Shown: one piece after another, positions 11,834-20,297 of the stretch | Layout: each line of letters opens with the position of its first letter | Position numbering within the stretch: position 1 is the first letter of the stretch | Source: Rhodospirillaceae bacterium | GTDB taxonomy: Bacteria > Pseudomonadota > Alphaproteobacteria > UBA6615 | Assembly (NCBI GenBank): GCA_038117265.1 | Contig: JAYOFO010000003.1 | Span: 10,865 to 74,864, forward strand | DNA: 64,000 nt | Direction: 5' to 3' | Position numbers and translations under genes: made by a program | Notes under the pieces: generated by a model | Seen by the model: the letters and a program-made list of their open reading frames with translations, nothing else | Databases searched by the model: none | Told to the model about the DNA's origin: nothing

Positions 11834-12838
11834 ATGTACGTTCGCTTGTCCGCATGCCTGCGCAAGCCGTTCCTGGCGCTTCTGGCGGCGATCGCCGCGG
11901 CCGCGTTCGCGGTGCCATCGGCCTTGGCCGATCGCGACCGGTAGGCGCAAGACTGGCCGAACACCGATTTCTCGCGCCACAGCGTCGACCTCGACGAGAT
12001 CTTCTCGGGCGGGATCGGCCGCGACGTCATCCCGGCGATCGACGATCCGACCGTCGGCGGGCTGGACAGGGGCGCCGAGGTCCACGACCCGCGCGAGCCG
12101 GTGATCCGCGTGAGCGTCAACGGCGCGACGCGCGGCTATCCGCTGTCGGTGCTGATCTGGCACGAGATCGTCAATGACGAGCTCGGCGGTGTGCCCATCG
12201 CCGTCACCTACTGCCCGTTGTGCAACTCCGCCATCATCTTCGACCGGCGGGTCGGCGACGTGGTGCTCGACTTCGGGACCACGGGGAACCTGCGCTTTTC
12301 CGACCTGGTAATATACGACCGCCAGACCGAGAGCTGGTGACAGCAATTCACGGGCGAGGGGATCGTCGGTGCGCATTCGGGGACGTCCCTGACGATGCTG
12401 CCCAACCGGGTGATGCCGTTCGGCCTGTTCGCGGCCGAACATCCCGACGCCGACCTGCTCGAGCGCCCGCCCTTCTTTCCGCGCAACTACGGGGTGAACC
12501 CGTATCACGGCTACGACACGGCGCCCGAACCGATGTTGCCCGGCCTGCCGCTGCCTGAGGGCGTGGCGCCGATGGCCTATGTCGTGGCGGTGGGCGACCA
12601 GGCCTGGACCCTCGACCTGCTGCGCGAGGCGAAGCGGATCGAGGCGGGCGACCTGCTGATCACCTGGGAACCCGGCCAGCTCTCGGTCCTCGACGTCTCC
12701 TACATCAAGGAGGCGCGCGACATCGGCTATGTCACGGTCCGGCGCCGCACCCCGGCGGGATATGCCGAGGCGCTGCACGACCTGACGTTCGCCTTCGCCT
12801 TCACCGCTTTCCACCCGGACGGAACGCTGCACAGGTAG
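11834..12838 (+). pseudogene. DUF3179 family secreted protein with two in-frame stops (TAG 11942-11944, TGA 12338-12340)
   Basis: One continuous frame holds a signal peptide (MYVRLSACLRKPFLALLAAIAAAAFAVPSALA), TAG, ...IPAIDDP...WHEIVND..VTYCPLCNS...DRQTESW, TGA, then QQFTGEGIVG... to the end. Confidence 0.75.
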
Positions 12839-16618: not shown

Positions 16619-17233
16619 ATGTCGAAGCGGCATTCCGCGAAATACAAGATCGATCGCCGTCTGGGCGAAAACCTCTGGGGCCGGCCGAAGAGCCCGGTCA
16701 ACCGGCGCGAGCACGGCCCCGGAGAACATGGCCGCCGACGCAAGAAGCCGTCGGATTATGGCCTCCACCTCATCGCCAAGCAGAAGCTGCGTAAGTATTA
16801 CGGCGACGTCGGCGAGCGGCAGTTCCGCCGCTACTACGACGAGGCCGTGCGTCGGCGCGGCGACACGGGCGAGAACCTGATCGAGCTACTCGAGCGACGC
16901 CTCGACGCCGTCATCTACCGGATGAAGTTCGTGCCGACGATCTTCGCCGCGCGCCAGTTCGTCAACCACGGCCACATCCGGGTGAACGGCAAGCGCGTGA
17001 ACATCCCGTCCTACCAGGTGCAGGACGGCGATGTGATCGAGGTGAAGGACAAGTCGCGCGAGATTCCGCTGGTGCTGGAGGCGATCGCCTCGAGCGAGCG
17101 CGACGTGCCGGACTATCTCGACGTCGACCTCAACAACCTCAAGGGCACCTACGTGCGCGGGCCGAAGCTCGCCGACGTGCCCTACCCGGTCCAGATGGAA
17201 CCGAACCTGGTCGTCGAGTTCTACTCGCTCTAG
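16619..17233 (+). CDS. rpsD: 30S ribosomal protein S4
   Basis: 204 aa, [26 protein letters not shown]..., with a C-terminal S4 RNA-binding domain. Confidence 0.97.
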
Positions 17234-17913
17234 CCGAGCAGTTCGCGCAAGCGTTTCAGGAGGCCGCCCCCGGGGTGGCCTTCTACCGTTTCGGACCTGG
17301 CGCCGCCATCGCTGCGCAGCGCGTCCAGAACGGCGTCGACGGGCGGGCGGCGGACATAGCCGCTTTCCGTGAAGCGGTGGCTGACGCGGCCCTGCGCGTC
17401 GAGCACGACGATCGCCGGGTGCGGCACCCCGTAATAGGGGCTGTCGGACGGGTAGTTCTCGTTCAGCAGGCCGAAGGCGCGGATCACCTCGGATCGCTCG
17501 TCCGACAGCGTCGGGAAGGCGATGGCCTTGCGGGCAGCGAAGCGCGCTAGCGTGGGAACCGCGTCGTAGGTGACGGTCGCGACCTCATAGCCCAGCGCGC
17601 GCACCTCCTCGATCCTGTCGTTCCAGGCGACCGCCTGGACCACGCAATAGGGTCACCAGGAAAGCGAACGCGAGAAGATCAGGATCAGGCCGCGGTTGCG
17701 CGTCAGCGCCCGGAAGTTGCGCACCTGGTCTTCCTGATCGGGCACCGAAAGGTCATGAGGCAGGGCCGTGCCGATAGCGACGCCCTTTTCGAGAGTGTCG
17801 AGCGGGCCGCGCGCCTGCGCGCCGGCCTCCGCCGCCGGCAGGAGCGTCGAAAGGAACATGGCCGCAAGCGCGGCGAGGAGCGCGGTGCGAAGCTGGCGGA
17901 TGCATCGGCGCAT
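17230..17913 (-). CDS. Secreted AhpC/TSA (redoxin, Prx-like) selenoprotein, Sec at codon 87 (TGA 17653-17655)
   Basis: Track ORFs 17653-17913 and 17230-17643 are in one frame and join as ...[26 protein letters not shown]... (WUPYC in place of WCPYC). Signal peptide present, RBS GGGAG, SECIS-like hairpin downstream. Confidence 0.8.
17623..17638 (-). promoter_or_regulatory. SECIS-like hairpin CCAGGC-GGUC-GCCUGG, loop at +24 to +27 from the U of UGA
   Basis: Perfect 6-bp stem with a GGUC tetraloop inside the coding sequence. Identical 16 nt occur at the same offset in the paralog. Confidence 0.7.
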
Positions 17914-17964: not shown

Positions 17965-18621
17965 CTAGCTTGCGGGCTGGCTCGCGCGTTCGAGGATCGT
18001 CTCGATCTCGGCTTCCGACGTGTAGCCGTGGCCGCCCCAGATGTTGGTGACGACGCCGTCGGCATTGACCACGACGACCCGGGGGTCGGCCGTGCCGTAA
18101 TAGCGGCTGCCCTCGGGGAACCGGTCGTTGAACAGGTCGAAGGCGCTGATCACCTGCTTGTCCGGATCGGACAGCGGCGGGAAGGCGATCTTGCGGCGTG
18201 CCGCGAAGCGCTTCACGGTCTCGGCGTCGTCAGCCGTGACGGACGCGACCTCGAAGCCCCGGGCGCGGATTTTCTCGATGTTGTCGTTCCAGGCGACCGC
18301 CTGGGCAATGCAGGTGGGTCACCACGCCAGCGAGCGCGAGAACAGCAGGATCAGGCCCTTCTTGGCCGTCAGCGCCTTGAAGTTGCGGACCTGGTCGGTC
18401 TGGTCGAGCACCGCGAGGTTGTGGGGGATCGCCTTGCCGATCGAATCGGCCTCGAGCGCGAGCGCCGCATGCGGCGCCAGAAATGTGAGCGTGCCGCCGA
18501 CGATAGTGGCCGCAACCGCGTGGCGCATTGCCTGGGCCCGCCGGCCGAAAACCTTGTGTCGCATGGCTTTTTGTATGCCTTCGCGTTCAATCGTGCTTGG
18601 GCACAGGATATGTTCCGCCAT
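17965..18621 (-). CDS. Secreted AhpC/TSA (redoxin, Prx-like) selenoprotein paralog, Sec encoded by TGA 18319-18321
   Basis: ORFs 18319-18621 and 17965-18216 are in one frame and join as ...LILLFSRSLAW-TGA-PTCIAQAVAWND... A signal-like N-terminus is present. The true start may be 18564 or 18528. Confidence 0.78.
18289..18304 (-). promoter_or_regulatory. SECIS-like hairpin CCAGGC-GGUC-GCCUGG (second copy)
   Basis: Same 16-nt hairpin at the same distance from the UGA as in the downstream paralog, although the flanking codons differ. Confidence 0.7.
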
Positions 18622-18670: not shown

Positions 18671-19231
18671 TCAGGCGGCGCGCCGGCGTCGTGTCGGTGC
18701 CTTGATCGGCTTCGGCACGCCGAGCTTTTTGTTCGTCTTCGAGACCTTCGACTTCGAATCCTTGGTGTAGAGCGGCCCGGTGGCGTTCAGGGCGTGGCCC
18801 TTGCGACGGCGGCGCTTGGCGTCCGCCCCCTTGCCCGCAAAGTGTTCCTGATCGTCATTGTCGGTGGCGGCGTACTGCACCTCGATCTTGTTGCCGTCCG
18901 GGTCGTAGACGTTGACCTGGCGCATGTTGATCTCTTCCAGCGAGATCACATCGTAGGGGATGTCGGCCTTGCGCAGCTTGCGCTGGAAGGCCTTCATCGA
19001 GCCGCCCGCGCGCAGCGCAAAATGCTCGACCTGCGCCTCGCCCGACTTGATGGGCTTCTTCGATTCCACCAGGTGGACGATCGCGCTGCTGCCGCAATAG
19101 TGCCAAGCGCCGCCGAACGGGAAGCTCGGGCGCTTGCCGCGCTTCAGTCCCAGCACGTCCTCATAGAAGGCCGACATCTCGTCGAGCCGGGTCGTGCGGA
19201 TGTTCACATGATCGAGCCAGTACATCGCCAT
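18671..19231 (-). CDS. VOC (glyoxalase/bleomycin-resistance/dioxygenase) family protein with a basic C-terminal tail
   Basis: MAMYWLDHVNIRT...HFAL... VOC fold, followed by a Lys/Arg-rich tail of about 55 aa (KRRRRKG...KSKVSKTNKK...TRRRRAA). RBS GGAGAA. Confidence 0.7.
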   Translation of the reverse strand: MAMYWLDHVNIRTTRLDEMSAFYEDVLGLKRGKRPSFPFGGAWHYCGSSAIVHLVESKKPIKSGEAQVEHFALRAGGSMKAFQRKLRKADIPYDVISLEEINMRQVNVYDPDGNKIEVQYAATDNDDQEHFAGKGADAKRRRRKGHALNATGPLYTKDSKSKVSKTNKKLGVPKPIKAPTRRRRAA

Positions 19232-19319: not shown

Positions 19320-20297
19320 CTAGACGATGCGCGTGCGCCAGATCTCGAGCGTATAGAGCACCAGCGCCGACCAGATGAACGCGAAGGTCAGCGCCTCGAT
19401 ACGCGTGAAGGGCTCGCCGAACACAGAGACGGCGAGCAGCAGGTTGCCCGAGGGCGCGATGTATTGCAGCAGGCCGATGGTCGCGAGCTTGATGCGCCGC
19501 GCGCCTGCGGAATAGAGCAGCAGGGGCAGGCCGGTGGCGATGCCCGCGAAGGCGAGCAGCGCGGCGAAGCCGGGCCCCCGCGAACCGAACGCGCCGGTGC
19601 CCGCGATTTCCATCCAGACGAGCACGCCGAGCGCGACCGGCAGCAGCAATGCGGTCTCGATCAGCAGCCCCGAGGAGGCGCTGACGGGGGCGGTCTTGCG
19701 GATCAGCCCATAGGTGGCGAAGGTGAAGGCCAGCACCAGGGTGATCCAGGGAACCGAGCCGTAGGCGACCACCTGGGTCAGGACACCGCAGGCGGCCAGC
19801 GCGACGGCGCCCCACTGCAGCGGCGACAGCCGCTCGCGCAGGATCACAAAGCCGAGCAGCACGCTGACCATCGGGTTCATGAAGTAGCCGATGCTGGCGG
19901 CGACGATCCGGTCGGTCAGCACGGCGTGGATGAACACCCACCAGTTGACGCCGATCAGCAGGGCGGTCGCGAACAGGATCGCGACCACGCGCCGGTCGCA
20001 GACGGCGCGGGCCACGGCCGGCCACTGCCGCCCCGCGGTCATCACGATCACCATGAAGACCAGCGACCAGACGAAGCGGTGGGCGGTGATCTCGGTTGCG
20101 GGCAGGGCCCCCAGCGCCTTGAAGTAGAGCGGGGTCAGGCCCCAGATCAGGAAGCCGCTCACGCCGAAGGCGAGACCGGCAGTCTCCTCGCTGGTGAACC
20201 GGCGGCGCGCCGGCGTATCGGGGGGCGTGGTCAGGGCGAGGCACTCCACCGGCGGGCGCCGGAATCGAAACGGGCCGCGAAGGATCGCGGCCCGCAC
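19320..20297 (-). CDS. rarD: RarD-like EamA/DMT family transporter
   Basis: GLAFGVSGFLIWGLTPLYFKAL...ITAHR is the RarD N-terminal signature. About 10 TM segments. The start is uncertain. Confidence 0.75.
   Translation of the reverse strand: MRAAILRGPFRFRRPPVECLALTTPPDTPARRRFTSEETAGLAFGVSGFLIWGLTPLYFKALGALPATEITAHRFVWSLVFMVIVMTAGRQWPAVARAVCDRRVVAILFATALLIGVNWWVFIHAVLTDRIVAASIGYFMNPMVSVLLGFVILRERLSPLQWGAVALAACGVLTQVVAYGSVPWITLVLAFTFATYGLIRKTAPVSASSGLLIETALLLPVALGVLVWMEIAGTGAFGSRGPGFAALLAFAGIATGLPLLLYSAGARRIKLATIGLLQYIAPSGNLLLAVSVFGEPFTRIEALTFAFIWSALVLYTLEIWRTRIV

What the first reader, a model, noticed from the sequence alone, without database searches (positions are those of the whole stretch)
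17965..18621. Second, tandem paralog carries the same TGA-at-CxxC architecture (W-U-P-T-C)
Immediately upstream on the same strand, ORFs 18319-18621 and 17965-18216 are again one frame. They join as FSRSLAW-[TGA]-PTCIAQAVAWND. Two diverged paralogs differ in many codons and in the x-x residues (PY versus PT), yet both keep TGA at the same column. That argues for maintained recoding rather than decay. Tandem duplicated periplasmic selenoprotein redoxins sit downstream of a rarD-like transporter gene and a VOC gene with a basic tail. This small same-strand cluster is not one I recognise as described.
Basis: partly seen in the sequence, partly recalled or inferred. Interest (0 to 1): 0.8.

Follow-up and report, generated by a model that had tools for sequence, protein, structure and literature searches.

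The report
Tandem Prx-like selenocysteine redoxin genes
Two neighbouring genes each encode an exported peroxiredoxin-fold redox protein whose active-site cysteine is replaced by selenocysteine (in-frame UGA plus a conserved RNA hairpin); this is real, but the family has been known from marine metagenome surveys since 2004-2008.

Summary
On the minus strand, ORFs 18319-18621 and 17965-18216 are one frame joined by TGA (18321-18319), reading FSRSLAW-U-PTC. The downstream paralog (17913-17230) has TGA at the same column (W-U-PYC).

The recoding interpretation is strongly supported:
- Fifteen syntenic loci from related marine alphaproteobacterial MAGs hold 26 further copies that span this column, and 24 of them have TGA there.
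- Coding constraint runs across the stop.
- A 6-bp hairpin with a GGUC loop starts 14 nt after the UGA. It shows frozen synonymous sites, GC-to-GU changes and one compensatory pair.
- Distant family members carry a differently sequenced hairpin at the same offset.
- The closest full-length relatives have Cys at the Sec column (W-C-x-x-C).

The novelty claim fails. Both proteins are 35% identical (E about 1e-33) to a read published under "Prx-like 1" (pfam00578, UxxC) in the GOS selenoproteome. [quoted passage not shown]

The fold is BCP/PrxQ-like, but the peroxiredoxin Pro/Thr/Arg residues are replaced. Some relatives are fused to a DsbD_N domain. All of this points to an exported selenol/thiol oxidoreductase.

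New here are only the conserved tandem A/B pair and the fact that databases split these genes. The link to the RarD and VOC genes is lineage synteny, not shown function.

The parts
17965..18564 (-). Paralog A: single CDS of 199 codons (Sec at codon 82) encoding an exported Prx-like redoxin, active site W-U-P-T-C. An alternative upstream ATG lies at 18621.
   Evidence: AhpC-TSA covers residues 44-174 across the TGA. The L001 orthologue is 58% identical (tblastn).
18319..18321 (-). In-frame TGA of paralog A, read as selenocysteine (U82).
   Evidence: All 13 intact A orthologues have TGA at this column. Relatives have Cys here.
18289..18304 (-). SECIS-like hairpin of A: CCAGGC-GGUC-GCCUGG. The stem begins at nt +18 from the U of UGA (14-nt spacer).
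   Evidence: it is the MFE of the 42 nt after UGA, -11.6 kcal/mol; 98.2% of cells paired, versus at most 50% when the 3' partners are slid; synonymous sites frozen.
18457..18564 (-). Predicted signal peptide of A: basic N-region, hydrophobic core, A-L-A then LEAD.
   Evidence: Read from the sequence. No signal-peptide predictor was available. The AF2 model of Cys homologue P0158 has an N-terminal helix at residues 10-30, ahead of the domain.
17230..17913 (-). Paralog B: single CDS of 227 codons (Sec at codon 87), active site W-U-P-Y-C. It keeps the family's GVPHP and Y..RP motifs.
17653..17655 (-). In-frame TGA of paralog B, read as selenocysteine.
   Evidence: TGA in 12 of 13 B copies; L014 has CGA.
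17623..17638 (-). SECIS-like hairpin of B: the same CCAGGC-GGUC-GCCUGG, with a possible extended lower stem.
   Evidence: (-16 kcal/mol with the extension).
18671..19231 (-). Upstream VOC/glyoxalase-family gene with a basic C-terminal tail. It is a neighbour; no functional link is shown.
   Evidence: PF00903, 38 bits. The tail is conserved in L001. Synteny.
19320..20297 (-). RarD/EamA-family transporter gene. It is a neighbour; no functional link is shown.
   Evidence: PF00892.

Best explanation
Each of the two tandem genes is one uninterrupted coding sequence for an exported, peroxiredoxin-fold thiol/selenol oxidoreductase of the known 'Prx-like 1 / Prx-like thiol:disulfide oxidoreductase' family. 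The UGA is decoded as selenocysteine. A 6-bp hairpin with a GGUC loop begins 14 nt after the UGA and lies inside the codons for Q-A-V-A-W. It would recruit SelB-GTP-Sec-tRNASec to the ribosome, as in the standard bacterial mechanism. This step is inferred; the sel genes were not seen. Sec occupies the exposed N-terminal position of a Trx-type U-x-x-C motif, which is the position of the Thr in the peroxiredoxin T-x-x-C. The Cys three residues later sits where the peroxidatic Cys of peroxiredoxins sits. The likely chemistry, all inferred, runs as follows. The selenolate attacks an oxidised substrate (a disulfide, sulfenate or peroxide) outside the cytoplasm. Cys+3 resolves the adduct to an intramolecular selenenylsulfide. 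That bond is then re-reduced by a DsbD/CcdA-type electron relay. The duplication into A (W-U-P-T-C, which has lost the family's conserved His and C-terminal Arg) and B (W-U-P-Y/F-C, which matches the family consensus) predates the divergence of the lineage. This suggests two different substrates or partners.
For: One ORF, not two:
- The Pfam AhpC-TSA domain spans the TGA in both genes.
- The 35 codons between the TGA and the next possible start are 77-83% identical to the L001 orthologues, with dN/dS 0.18-0.33.

Maintained TGA:
- Of 28 copies (the two in the window plus 26 from 15 other loci), 26 have TGA at this column.
- The two exceptions (L012 A with TAA, L014 B with CGA) lie in loci with other lesions.
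- TGA is otherwise an ordinary stop here; for example purL, grxD and VOC end in TGA.

SECIS:
- The hairpin is paired in 98.2% of cells, versus at most 50% in slid controls. Seven copies show GC-to-GU and four show a compensatory GC-to-AU change.
- The Ala GCG and Val GTC third positions are invariant in all 23 intact genes, while invariant-amino-acid codons elsewhere have mean third-position entropy of 0.79-0.98 bit.
- Codon +5 varies among A/H/R/S/D/V but always ends in C.
- Distant Sec-form members (L024, L026) have a different 7-bp hairpin with a GUG loop, starting at the same +18.

Sec/Cys pairing, among the 150 best library representatives:
- 69 are full-length W-C-x-x-C forms.
- 72 are gene calls that start just downstream of the active site. 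Two of these were checked and are split at TGA.
- 2 have the TGA read as Trp.
- 7 carry the true peroxiredoxin PxxxT/SPxC motif.

Family identity:
- GOS Dataset S1 lists WUPYC 67 times, including under the 'Prx-like 1' heading.
- A and B are each 35% identical (E 1e-33 and 6e-34) over the whole domain to JCVI_READ_1091140396027, which has U in the same column.

Fold: the AF2 model of Cys homologue P0158 (pLDDT 89.9) has BCP/PrxQ/AhpE as its top 50 PDB neighbours.

Reductase link: relatives are fused to DsbD_N (PF11412) above Pfam's cut-off.
Against: - No selA, selB, selC or selD was found in the window or in any fetched locus, and the rest of the genome cannot be reached.
- Hairpin stability alone is not exceptional for this GC content (z = -0.9 to -1.5).
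- The compensatory change probably represents a single event in one sub-clade.
- No expression, proteomic or selenium-labelling data exist.
- The substrate and the reductant are inferred only from fusions in other family members. No DsbD/CcdA gene was seen next to A/B.
- The structure was predicted for a 41%-identical Cys homologue, not for A itself.
Confidence: 0.88

Rival explanations
1. Translation stops at the UGAs. The loci are then either pseudogenes or pairs of short separate genes: a signal-peptide fragment plus a C-terminal fragment restarted at an internal GTG or ATG.
For: Public gene calls treat them this way. P0001 is a 119-aa 'redoxin domain-containing protein', and L001 has 78+119 and 85+115 aa calls. 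The same window holds a real nonsense-disrupted gene, the DUF3179 gene with TAG and TGA at Trp codons. L012 and L014 show decayed copies.
Against: TGA sits at exactly the catalytic column in 26 of 28 copies, in two paralogs that diverged before the lineage did. Purifying selection acts on the stretch between the TGA and the next start codon. A fragment restarted downstream would lack the U-x-x-C motif, and the upstream fragment would lack most of the fold. A conserved RNA hairpin follows the TGA.
Confidence: 0.03
2. The UGA is read through, but by a near-cognate or suppressor tRNA inserting Trp, Cys or Arg, or through lineage-wide UGA reassignment, rather than by the selenocysteine machinery.
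For: The Sec machinery was not observed. Two database relatives are translated with W at this column (P0040, P0111). One copy has CGA (Arg) there (L014 B).
Against: TGA terminates conserved genes of normal length in the same window, so there is no reassignment. The column is the nucleophilic Cys of W-C-x-x-C in 69 relatives, the classic Sec/Cys pair. A hairpin with a G/U-containing loop at a fixed offset, under RNA-level selection, is the bacterial SECIS signature. The published family is accepted as a selenoprotein family (PMC2398784, PMC13188914).
Confidence: 0.04
3. Same selenoproteins, different chemistry. They act as peroxidases, with Sec as the peroxidatic residue forming a selenenic acid that is resolved by Cys+3 (GPx/Prx-like), rather than as disulfide reductases.
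For: The closest solved structures, by sequence and by fold, are all peroxiredoxins (BCP/PrxQ/AhpE). Cys+3 occupies the position of the peroxidatic Cys. Sec is well suited to peroxide reduction (established knowledge of GPx).
Against: The peroxiredoxin catalytic Pro, Thr and Arg are all replaced (Arg77, Sec, and His or Asp). The BCP NCBIfam score of 51-53 bits is far below its 140-bit cut-off. The motif W-C/U-P-x-C is of the thioredoxin/CcmG type. Fusion to DsbD_N fits either role, because a periplasmic peroxidase would also need that reductant.
Confidence: 0.3

Closest known systems
Prx-like 1 / 'Prx-like thiol:disulfide oxidoreductase' selenoprotein family (pfam00578, UxxC). Sources: Kryukov & Gladyshev 2004 as cited in PMC9312934; Sargasso Sea selenoproteome PMC1088965; GOS selenoproteome PMC2398784.
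   Same: AhpC-TSA domain. Trx-like U-x-x-C in place of the Prx T-x-x-C/U. The W-U-P-[YFT]-C and (N/S)RS..W context. Marine origin. Many Cys homologues. 35% identity over the full domain to a published member, with U in the same column.
   Different: Here two diverged copies sit in tandem, both with Sec, conserved across an uncultured alphaproteobacterial lineage. [quoted passage not shown] Paralog A has lost the family's conserved His (GIPHP becomes GTADP) and C-terminal Arg.
BCP/PrxQ peroxiredoxins (e.g. Aeropyrum pernix BCP 2cx3, Xanthomonas PrxQ 5iiz, M. tuberculosis BcpB 5epf)
   Same: Closest solved relatives by sequence (E 3e-12). Closest by fold for a Cys homologue (target-normalised TM-score 0.78-0.87 among the top-ranked BCP/PrxQ/AhpE hits). 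The Cys at +3 aligns with the peroxidatic Cys.
   Different: The PxxxT/SxxC motif and the catalytic Arg are not kept. Sec sits at the Thr position. The proteins carry an N-terminal export signal. The NCBIfam BCP score is far below its cut-off.
TlpA/ResA/CcmG periplasmic thiol-disulfide oxidoreductases
   Same: Exported thioredoxin-superfamily reductants with a W-C-x-x-C motif. E. coli CcmG has W-C-P-T-C (from memory, not tested here). They depend on DsbD/CcdA, and relatives of the present family are fused to DsbD_N.
   Different: Sequence similarity is much weaker (ResA E about 1e-5; NCBIfam ResA 34 vs 170 bits, DsbE 21 vs 359 bits). No TlpA/ResA-like structure is among the top 50 fold matches.
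E. coli fdhF SECIS (canonical bacterial Sec insertion element)
   Same: Loop position is similar (GU at +25/+26 here versus +23/+24 in fdhF).
   Different: A shorter perfect 6-bp stem with no bulged U, and a 14-nt rather than 11-nt spacer. No Rfam family matched. Binding to SelB is untested.

Membership tests
Prx-like 1 / Prx-like thiol:disulfide oxidoreductase selenoproteins | pfam00578 (AhpC-TSA) domain | tested here: met
   73.3 and 72.8 bits against a cut-off of 26. The domain spans the TGA.
Prx-like 1 / Prx-like thiol:disulfide oxidoreductase selenoproteins | Trx-like U-x-x-C motif instead of the Prx T-x-x-C/U | tested here: met
   (W-U-P-T-C, W-U-P-Y-C). One search aligns U to the Ser/Thr and the Cys to the peroxidatic Cys of BCP 2cx3.
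Prx-like 1 / Prx-like thiol:disulfide oxidoreductase selenoproteins | Significant full-length similarity to published members, with Sec in the same column | tested here: met
   (GOS Dataset S1, 'Prx-like 1', WUPYC 67 times); 35% identity, E 6e-34 and 1e-33.
Prx-like 1 / Prx-like thiol:disulfide oxidoreductase selenoproteins | Cys-containing homologues with Cys aligned to Sec | tested here: met
   69 of the 150 best representatives are W-C-x-x-C forms.
Bacterial selenoprotein (general) | SECIS stem-loop immediately 3' of the in-frame UGA | tested here: met
   a conserved hairpin at +18..+33 with a G/U loop, covariation, frozen synonymous sites, and an equivalent hairpin at the same offset in distant members.
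Bacterial selenoprotein (general) | selA, selB, selC (tRNA-Sec) and selD present in the same genome | not testable with these tools
   No tRNA-Sec in the window or in 15 loci. No sel-type domains among 20 size-matched window ORFs.
Bacterial selenoprotein (general) | Selenium actually incorporated at the UGA | not testable with these tools
   Needs 75Se labelling or mass spectrometry.
Peroxiredoxin, BCP/PrxQ subfamily | Peroxiredoxin fold | tested here: met
   on Cys homologue P0158 (41% identical to A): the top 50 PDB matches are all peroxiredoxins.
Peroxiredoxin, BCP/PrxQ subfamily | Catalytic P-x-x-x-T/S-x-x-C motif | tested here: not met
   the Pro position is the invariant Arg77, and the Thr position is Sec/Cys.
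Peroxiredoxin, BCP/PrxQ subfamily | Conserved catalytic Arg | tested here: not met
   the Arg of GIERST aligns to Asp in A. The family consensus has His there (GIPHP).
Peroxiredoxin, BCP/PrxQ subfamily | NCBIfam equivalog score (NF006960) | tested here: not met
   51.2 and 53.4 bits against a cut-off of 140.
TlpA/ResA/CcmG thiol-disulfide oxidoreductases | Family-model score (NCBIfam ResA NF002854, DsbE NF011941) | tested here: not met
   34.2 vs 170 bits and 20.7 vs 359 bits.
TlpA/ResA/CcmG thiol-disulfide oxidoreductases | Exported, W-C-x-x-C active site | tested here: inconclusive
   The motif and signal-like N-termini are present, but export was judged by eye only.
SelL-related / WAxxUGC ResA-like selenoproteins (NCBIfam NF040769, NF041054) | Family-model score | tested here: not met
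   at most 30.6 vs 120 bits and at most 27.6 vs 300 bits.

The most novel reading that the evidence does not exclude
The conserved A/B pair may be a dedicated two-selenoprotein extracytoplasmic relay. One paralog (B, family-consensus active site) would be recharged by a DsbD-type reductant and pass electrons to the divergent paralog (A, which has lost the conserved His and Arg). Alternatively the two might act as a heterodimer, possibly serving the adjacent VOC enzyme and RarD-type exporter in detoxifying an electrophile or oxidised metabolite. Sequential use of two selenoproteins has a cytoplasmic precedent (selenoprotein Grx reducing selenoprotein MsrA, cited in PMC13188914). An exported tandem Prx-like pair is not reported in the GOS paper or the two reviews consulted here.
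Probability: 0.1. Interest if true: 0.55.

Novelty: new member of a known kind. Interest (0 to 1): 0.27.

Why it matters
It matters mainly for annotation. These genes are split into fragments or truncated in public gene calls. No NCBIfam model reaches its cut-off. About half of the nearest database representatives of this family appear to be mis-called Sec forms. The family is abundant in the ocean (225 Sec forms in GOS) but has no experimentally defined substrate. The conserved tandem pair, the fixed-offset SECIS and the DsbD_N fusions give concrete handles for a biochemical test. It does not open a new category of biology.

Tried and rejected
The C-terminal window fragment was used instead.
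- The first word-indexed homologue search returned only 2 hits, because Sec forms are split in the database.
- The Rfam scan of the window found only tRNA-Leu, and no SECIS family.
- ARAGORN found no tRNA-Sec in the window or in 15 loci.
- Folding energies of the regions after the UGA are not better than shuffles, so the hairpin case rests on conservation and covariation, not on energy.
- The promoter/terminator scan gave nothing above background, so operon structure is unresolved.
- Genomic contexts of six Cys-form homologues share no neighbour and include no DsbD/CcdA gene, so context gives no function.
- Pfam on 20 window ORFs of SelA, SelB or SelD size found only housekeeping enzymes.
- UGA reassignment was considered and rejected, because TGA ends normal genes.
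- A pseudogene reading was rejected, because of the contrast with the genuinely disrupted DUF3179 gene.
- True peroxiredoxin membership was rejected, because the catalytic residues are absent.
- TlpA/ResA membership was rejected, because the scores and fold neighbours do not fit.

Full report
OBSERVATION. On the minus strand, translating 18621..17965 gives one reading frame with a single internal stop...GLILLFSRSLAW*PTCIAQAVAWND.... The stop is TGA at 18321..18319. The neighbouring gene (17913..17230) reads ...[23 protein letters not shown]..., with TGA at 17655..17653. With the stop replaced by Cys, each product matches Pfam AhpC-TSA at 73 bits against a cut-off of 26, and the domain runs across the stop. 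The likely start of the flagged gene is ATG 18564 (MRHKVFGRR...), because the orthologue begins at the equivalent place. A window-wide scan for in-frame TGA inside coding-like sequence with a C/S/T three residues away returns only these two sites. The description and the coordinates are correct.

IS THE TGA MAINTAINED? The only close database hit was a 119-aa C-terminal fragment from an alphaproteobacterial MAG. Its contig (L001) has the same gene order: purL-bolA-grxD-EamA-VOC-A-B, convergent on rpsD. Both redoxin genes there are again called as two fragments. Reading the DNA shows TGA at the same column in both. A scan of one genome per species returned 14 more loci, all marine or aquatic Alphaproteobacteria/Rhodospirillaceae MAGs with the same synteny.

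Across the window and these loci there are 28 copies that span the column, and 26 have TGA there. The exceptions are L012 A (TAA, with the preceding Trp codon and the hairpin loop also mutated) and L014 B (CGA, with a broken stem). Both loci carry other premature stops or a frameshift, so they are decayed copies or poor assemblies. One of the search patterns required a Cys codon at that column and recovered no Cys form in this lineage.

A orthologues are closer to each other than to B: about 58-60% identity between orthologues against 47% between the window's paralogs. Every A copy has P-T-C and every B copy has P-Y/F-C. The duplication is therefore older than the lineage, and both copies have kept TGA since. 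The 35 codons after the TGA would be untranslated if the TGA terminated, because the next start in A is 34 codons downstream. Those codons are 77-83% identical between orthologues, with dN/dS 0.18-0.33. TGA is otherwise a normal stop here, since purL, grxD, VOC and others end in TGA.

As an internal control, the window also contains a genuinely disrupted gene. A DUF3179 gene has TAG (11942-11944) and TGA (12338-12340) at positions where the intact L001 orthologue has Trp. This is what decay looks like here, and it is unlike the redoxin genes.

THE RNA SIGNAL. Starting at nucleotide +18 from the U of UGA (a 14-nt spacer), both paralogs have CCAGGC-GGUC-GCCUGG. This is a 6-bp stem with a GGUC loop, lying within the codons x-Q-A-V-A-W. 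It is the minimum-free-energy fold of the 42 nt after the UGA: -11.6 kcal/mol in A, and -16 kcal/mol in B with a lower-stem extension. Energy alone is not exceptional for 68% GC sequence (z = -0.9 to -1.5).

The case for the hairpin is evolutionary:
- Across the 28 copies, 98.2% of pair cells are standard pairs, against at most 50% when the 3' partners are slid.
- Seven copies have GC changed to GU through an Ala-to-Val change.
- Four copies have a compensatory GC-to-AU change made of two synonymous substitutions (CAG to CAA with GCC to GCT). This is probably a single event in one sub-clade.
- In the 23 intact genes, the Ala GCG and Val GTC third positions that form the loop are invariant. Elsewhere in the genes, codons with an invariant amino acid have mean third-position entropy of 0.98 bit (A) and 0.79 bit (B), and only 7-14% are frozen.
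- The codon before Gln changes its amino acid among A/H/R/S (in A) and D/V (in B), yet always ends in the C that opens the stem.

Two distant family members that databases list as N-terminally truncated proteins (P0033, P0084) turn out to be ...RSADW-TGA-PFC/PYC... genes. They carry a differently sequenced 7-bp hairpin (GCAGCUC-GUG-GAGCUGC and GCAACUC-GUG-GAGUUGC) that starts at the same +18. A stem-loop directly 3' of the UGA is how reviews describe the bacterial SECIS (PMC9312934). The GGUC loop and its position resemble the E. coli fdhF element, whose sequence I recalled from memory and folded. No Rfam family covers this hairpin.

WHAT THE PROTEIN IS. By sequence, the closest solved structures are BCP/PrxQ peroxiredoxins (A. 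pernix 2cx3, E 3e-12). ResA-type oxidoreductases are much weaker, at about 1e-5. In that alignment the Cys at +3 falls on the peroxidatic Cys and the Sec falls on the Ser/Thr of the peroxiredoxin T/S-x-x-C. The Prx Pro position holds the family-invariant Arg77. The Prx catalytic Arg position holds Asp in A, and His in B and in the family consensus (GIPHP). No NCBIfam model reaches its cut-off: BCP 51-53 vs 140 bits, ResA 34 vs 170, SelL-related at most 31 vs 120, WAxxUGC at most 28 vs 300.

An AlphaFold model of the nearest full-length Cys homologue returned by the word-indexed homologue search (P0158, 41% identical; pLDDT 89.9) has only peroxiredoxins among its top 50 PDB neighbours. So this is a peroxiredoxin scaffold carrying a thioredoxin-type W-U-P-x-C site.

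All 18 aligned family members, including A and B, start with a basic and then hydrophobic signal-like segment. In A it ends A-L-A before LEAD, and in B it ends A-E-A before GAQA. This was judged by eye, because no predictor was available. Several relatives carry a C-terminal DsbD_N domain (PF11412) above Pfam's cut-off. That is the module that hands electrons to periplasmic thioredoxin-fold reductants, and it is the best available clue to the reductant.

SEC VERSUS CYS IN RELATIVES. An exhaustive search with the C-terminal part of A found 593 representatives at E up to 1e-3. The best 150 break down as follows:
- 69 are full-length W-C-x-x-C proteins.
- 72 are gene calls that begin a few residues downstream of the active site. 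This is the signature of a caller restarting after a TGA, and two were verified.
- 2 have W-W-P-F-C, meaning the TGA was read as Trp.
- 7 are true peroxiredoxins.
The family therefore flips between Cys and Sec at this one column, and Sec forms are common.

IS IT KNOWN? Yes. [quoted passage not shown] The GOS paper lists 'Prx-like 1, pfam00578, UxxC' with 225 selenoproteins and 2,740 Cys homologues (PMC2398784). Its Dataset S1 contains WUPYC 67 times, including under that heading, for example ...FVFNRSVDWUPFCIRQ...YGVPYPGVVLL.... A and B are each 35% identical over the whole domain to that read (E 1e-33 and 6e-34). [quoted passage not shown]

What I did not find described is a tandem Prx-like 1/Prx-like 1 pair. 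GOS reports only other neighbouring selenoprotein combinations.

NEIGHBOURS. The RarD/EamA and VOC genes are as described, and the VOC basic tail is conserved in L001. However, the whole block purL...leuA is collinear in every locus. Paralog B is missing in L009 and L013, and about 2 kb is inserted between A and B in L006. Cys-form homologues elsewhere are solitary genes in unrelated contexts. The promoter/terminator scans were uninformative. A functional cluster is therefore not supported.

MECHANISM AND CONFIDENCE. I consider the following shown with high confidence (about 0.9): each gene is a single ORF with a maintained UGA at the catalytic column, followed by a selected hairpin, and it belongs to the Prx-like 1 family. 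The following steps are inferred:
- SelB/tRNA-Sec decoding. The machinery was not seen.
- Export.
- A selenolate attack followed by a Se-S bond to Cys+3.
- Re-reduction by a DsbD-type relay.
Whether the substrate is a disulfide or sulfenate, or a peroxide, remains open. I put the peroxidase reading at about 0.3. Paralog A's loss of the conserved His and C-terminal Arg suggests that the two copies do different jobs.

VERDICT. The family is already known, so this is a new, mis-annotated, tandemly duplicated member of a known kind. Interest is low to moderate.

Noticed in passing
window 11834-12838 (+); TAG 11942-11944, TGA 12338-12340: The DUF3179-family gene has two in-frame stops exactly where the intact L001 orthologue (L001 15755-16759, minus strand) has Trp (TGG to TAG and TGG to TGA). 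It is otherwise well conserved and has no frameshift. It is a recent pseudogene or a consensus error, and it served as a useful contrast to the Sec codons.
   Followed up: partly
L012 5869-7060; L014 5059-6250: In two related MAGs the A and B copies are degraded. L012 A has TAA at the Sec column, Trp changed to Arg before it, and a GAUU loop. L012 B has a frameshift. L014 A has extra stops. L014 B has CGA (Arg) at the Sec column and a broken stem. This could mark lineages that lost selenocysteine use, or low-quality assemblies.
   Followed up: partly
L009 3052-3715; L013 6001-7027; L006 3764-6379: Paralog B is absent in L009 and L013, where A is followed directly by rpsD. About 2 kb is inserted between A and B in L006. 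The tandem pair is therefore not obligatory.
   Followed up: no
proteins P0063, P0072, P0029, P0130, P0007, P0162, P0033 (L024 1501-2388): Family members are fused to a C-terminal DsbD_N domain (PF11412). P0007 has redoxin-DsbD_N-redoxin. At least P0033 is a Sec form. This suggests the family draws electrons from a DsbD-type relay.
   Followed up: partly
window, 51 high-GC3 ORFs: TAG appears to be the commonest stop codon (about 32 of 50) in a 68.5% GC sequence, where TGA would be expected to dominate. A cruder ORF selection gave TGA above TAG, and L001 gene calls give 8 TGA, 7 TAG and 5 TAA. The signal is therefore uncertain.
   Followed up: partly
window 17230-17233: Paralog B and the convergent rpsD gene overlap by 4 nt, sharing a palindromic CTAG as both TAG stops. 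The window's B has a roughly 20-residue C-terminal extension (…[23 protein letters not shown]) that is absent from the L001 orthologue.
   Followed up: no
window 18674-18830 (-); L001 9500-9649: The VOC/glyoxalase-family protein upstream of A carries a conserved, highly basic, low-complexity C-terminal tail of about 60 residues (K/R-rich). This is unusual for this enzyme family, and its function is unknown.
   Followed up: no
proteins P0040, P0111: Two database representatives of the family read W-W-P-F-C at the active site. These are presumably Sec-form genes translated with a code that reads TGA as Trp.
   Followed up: no
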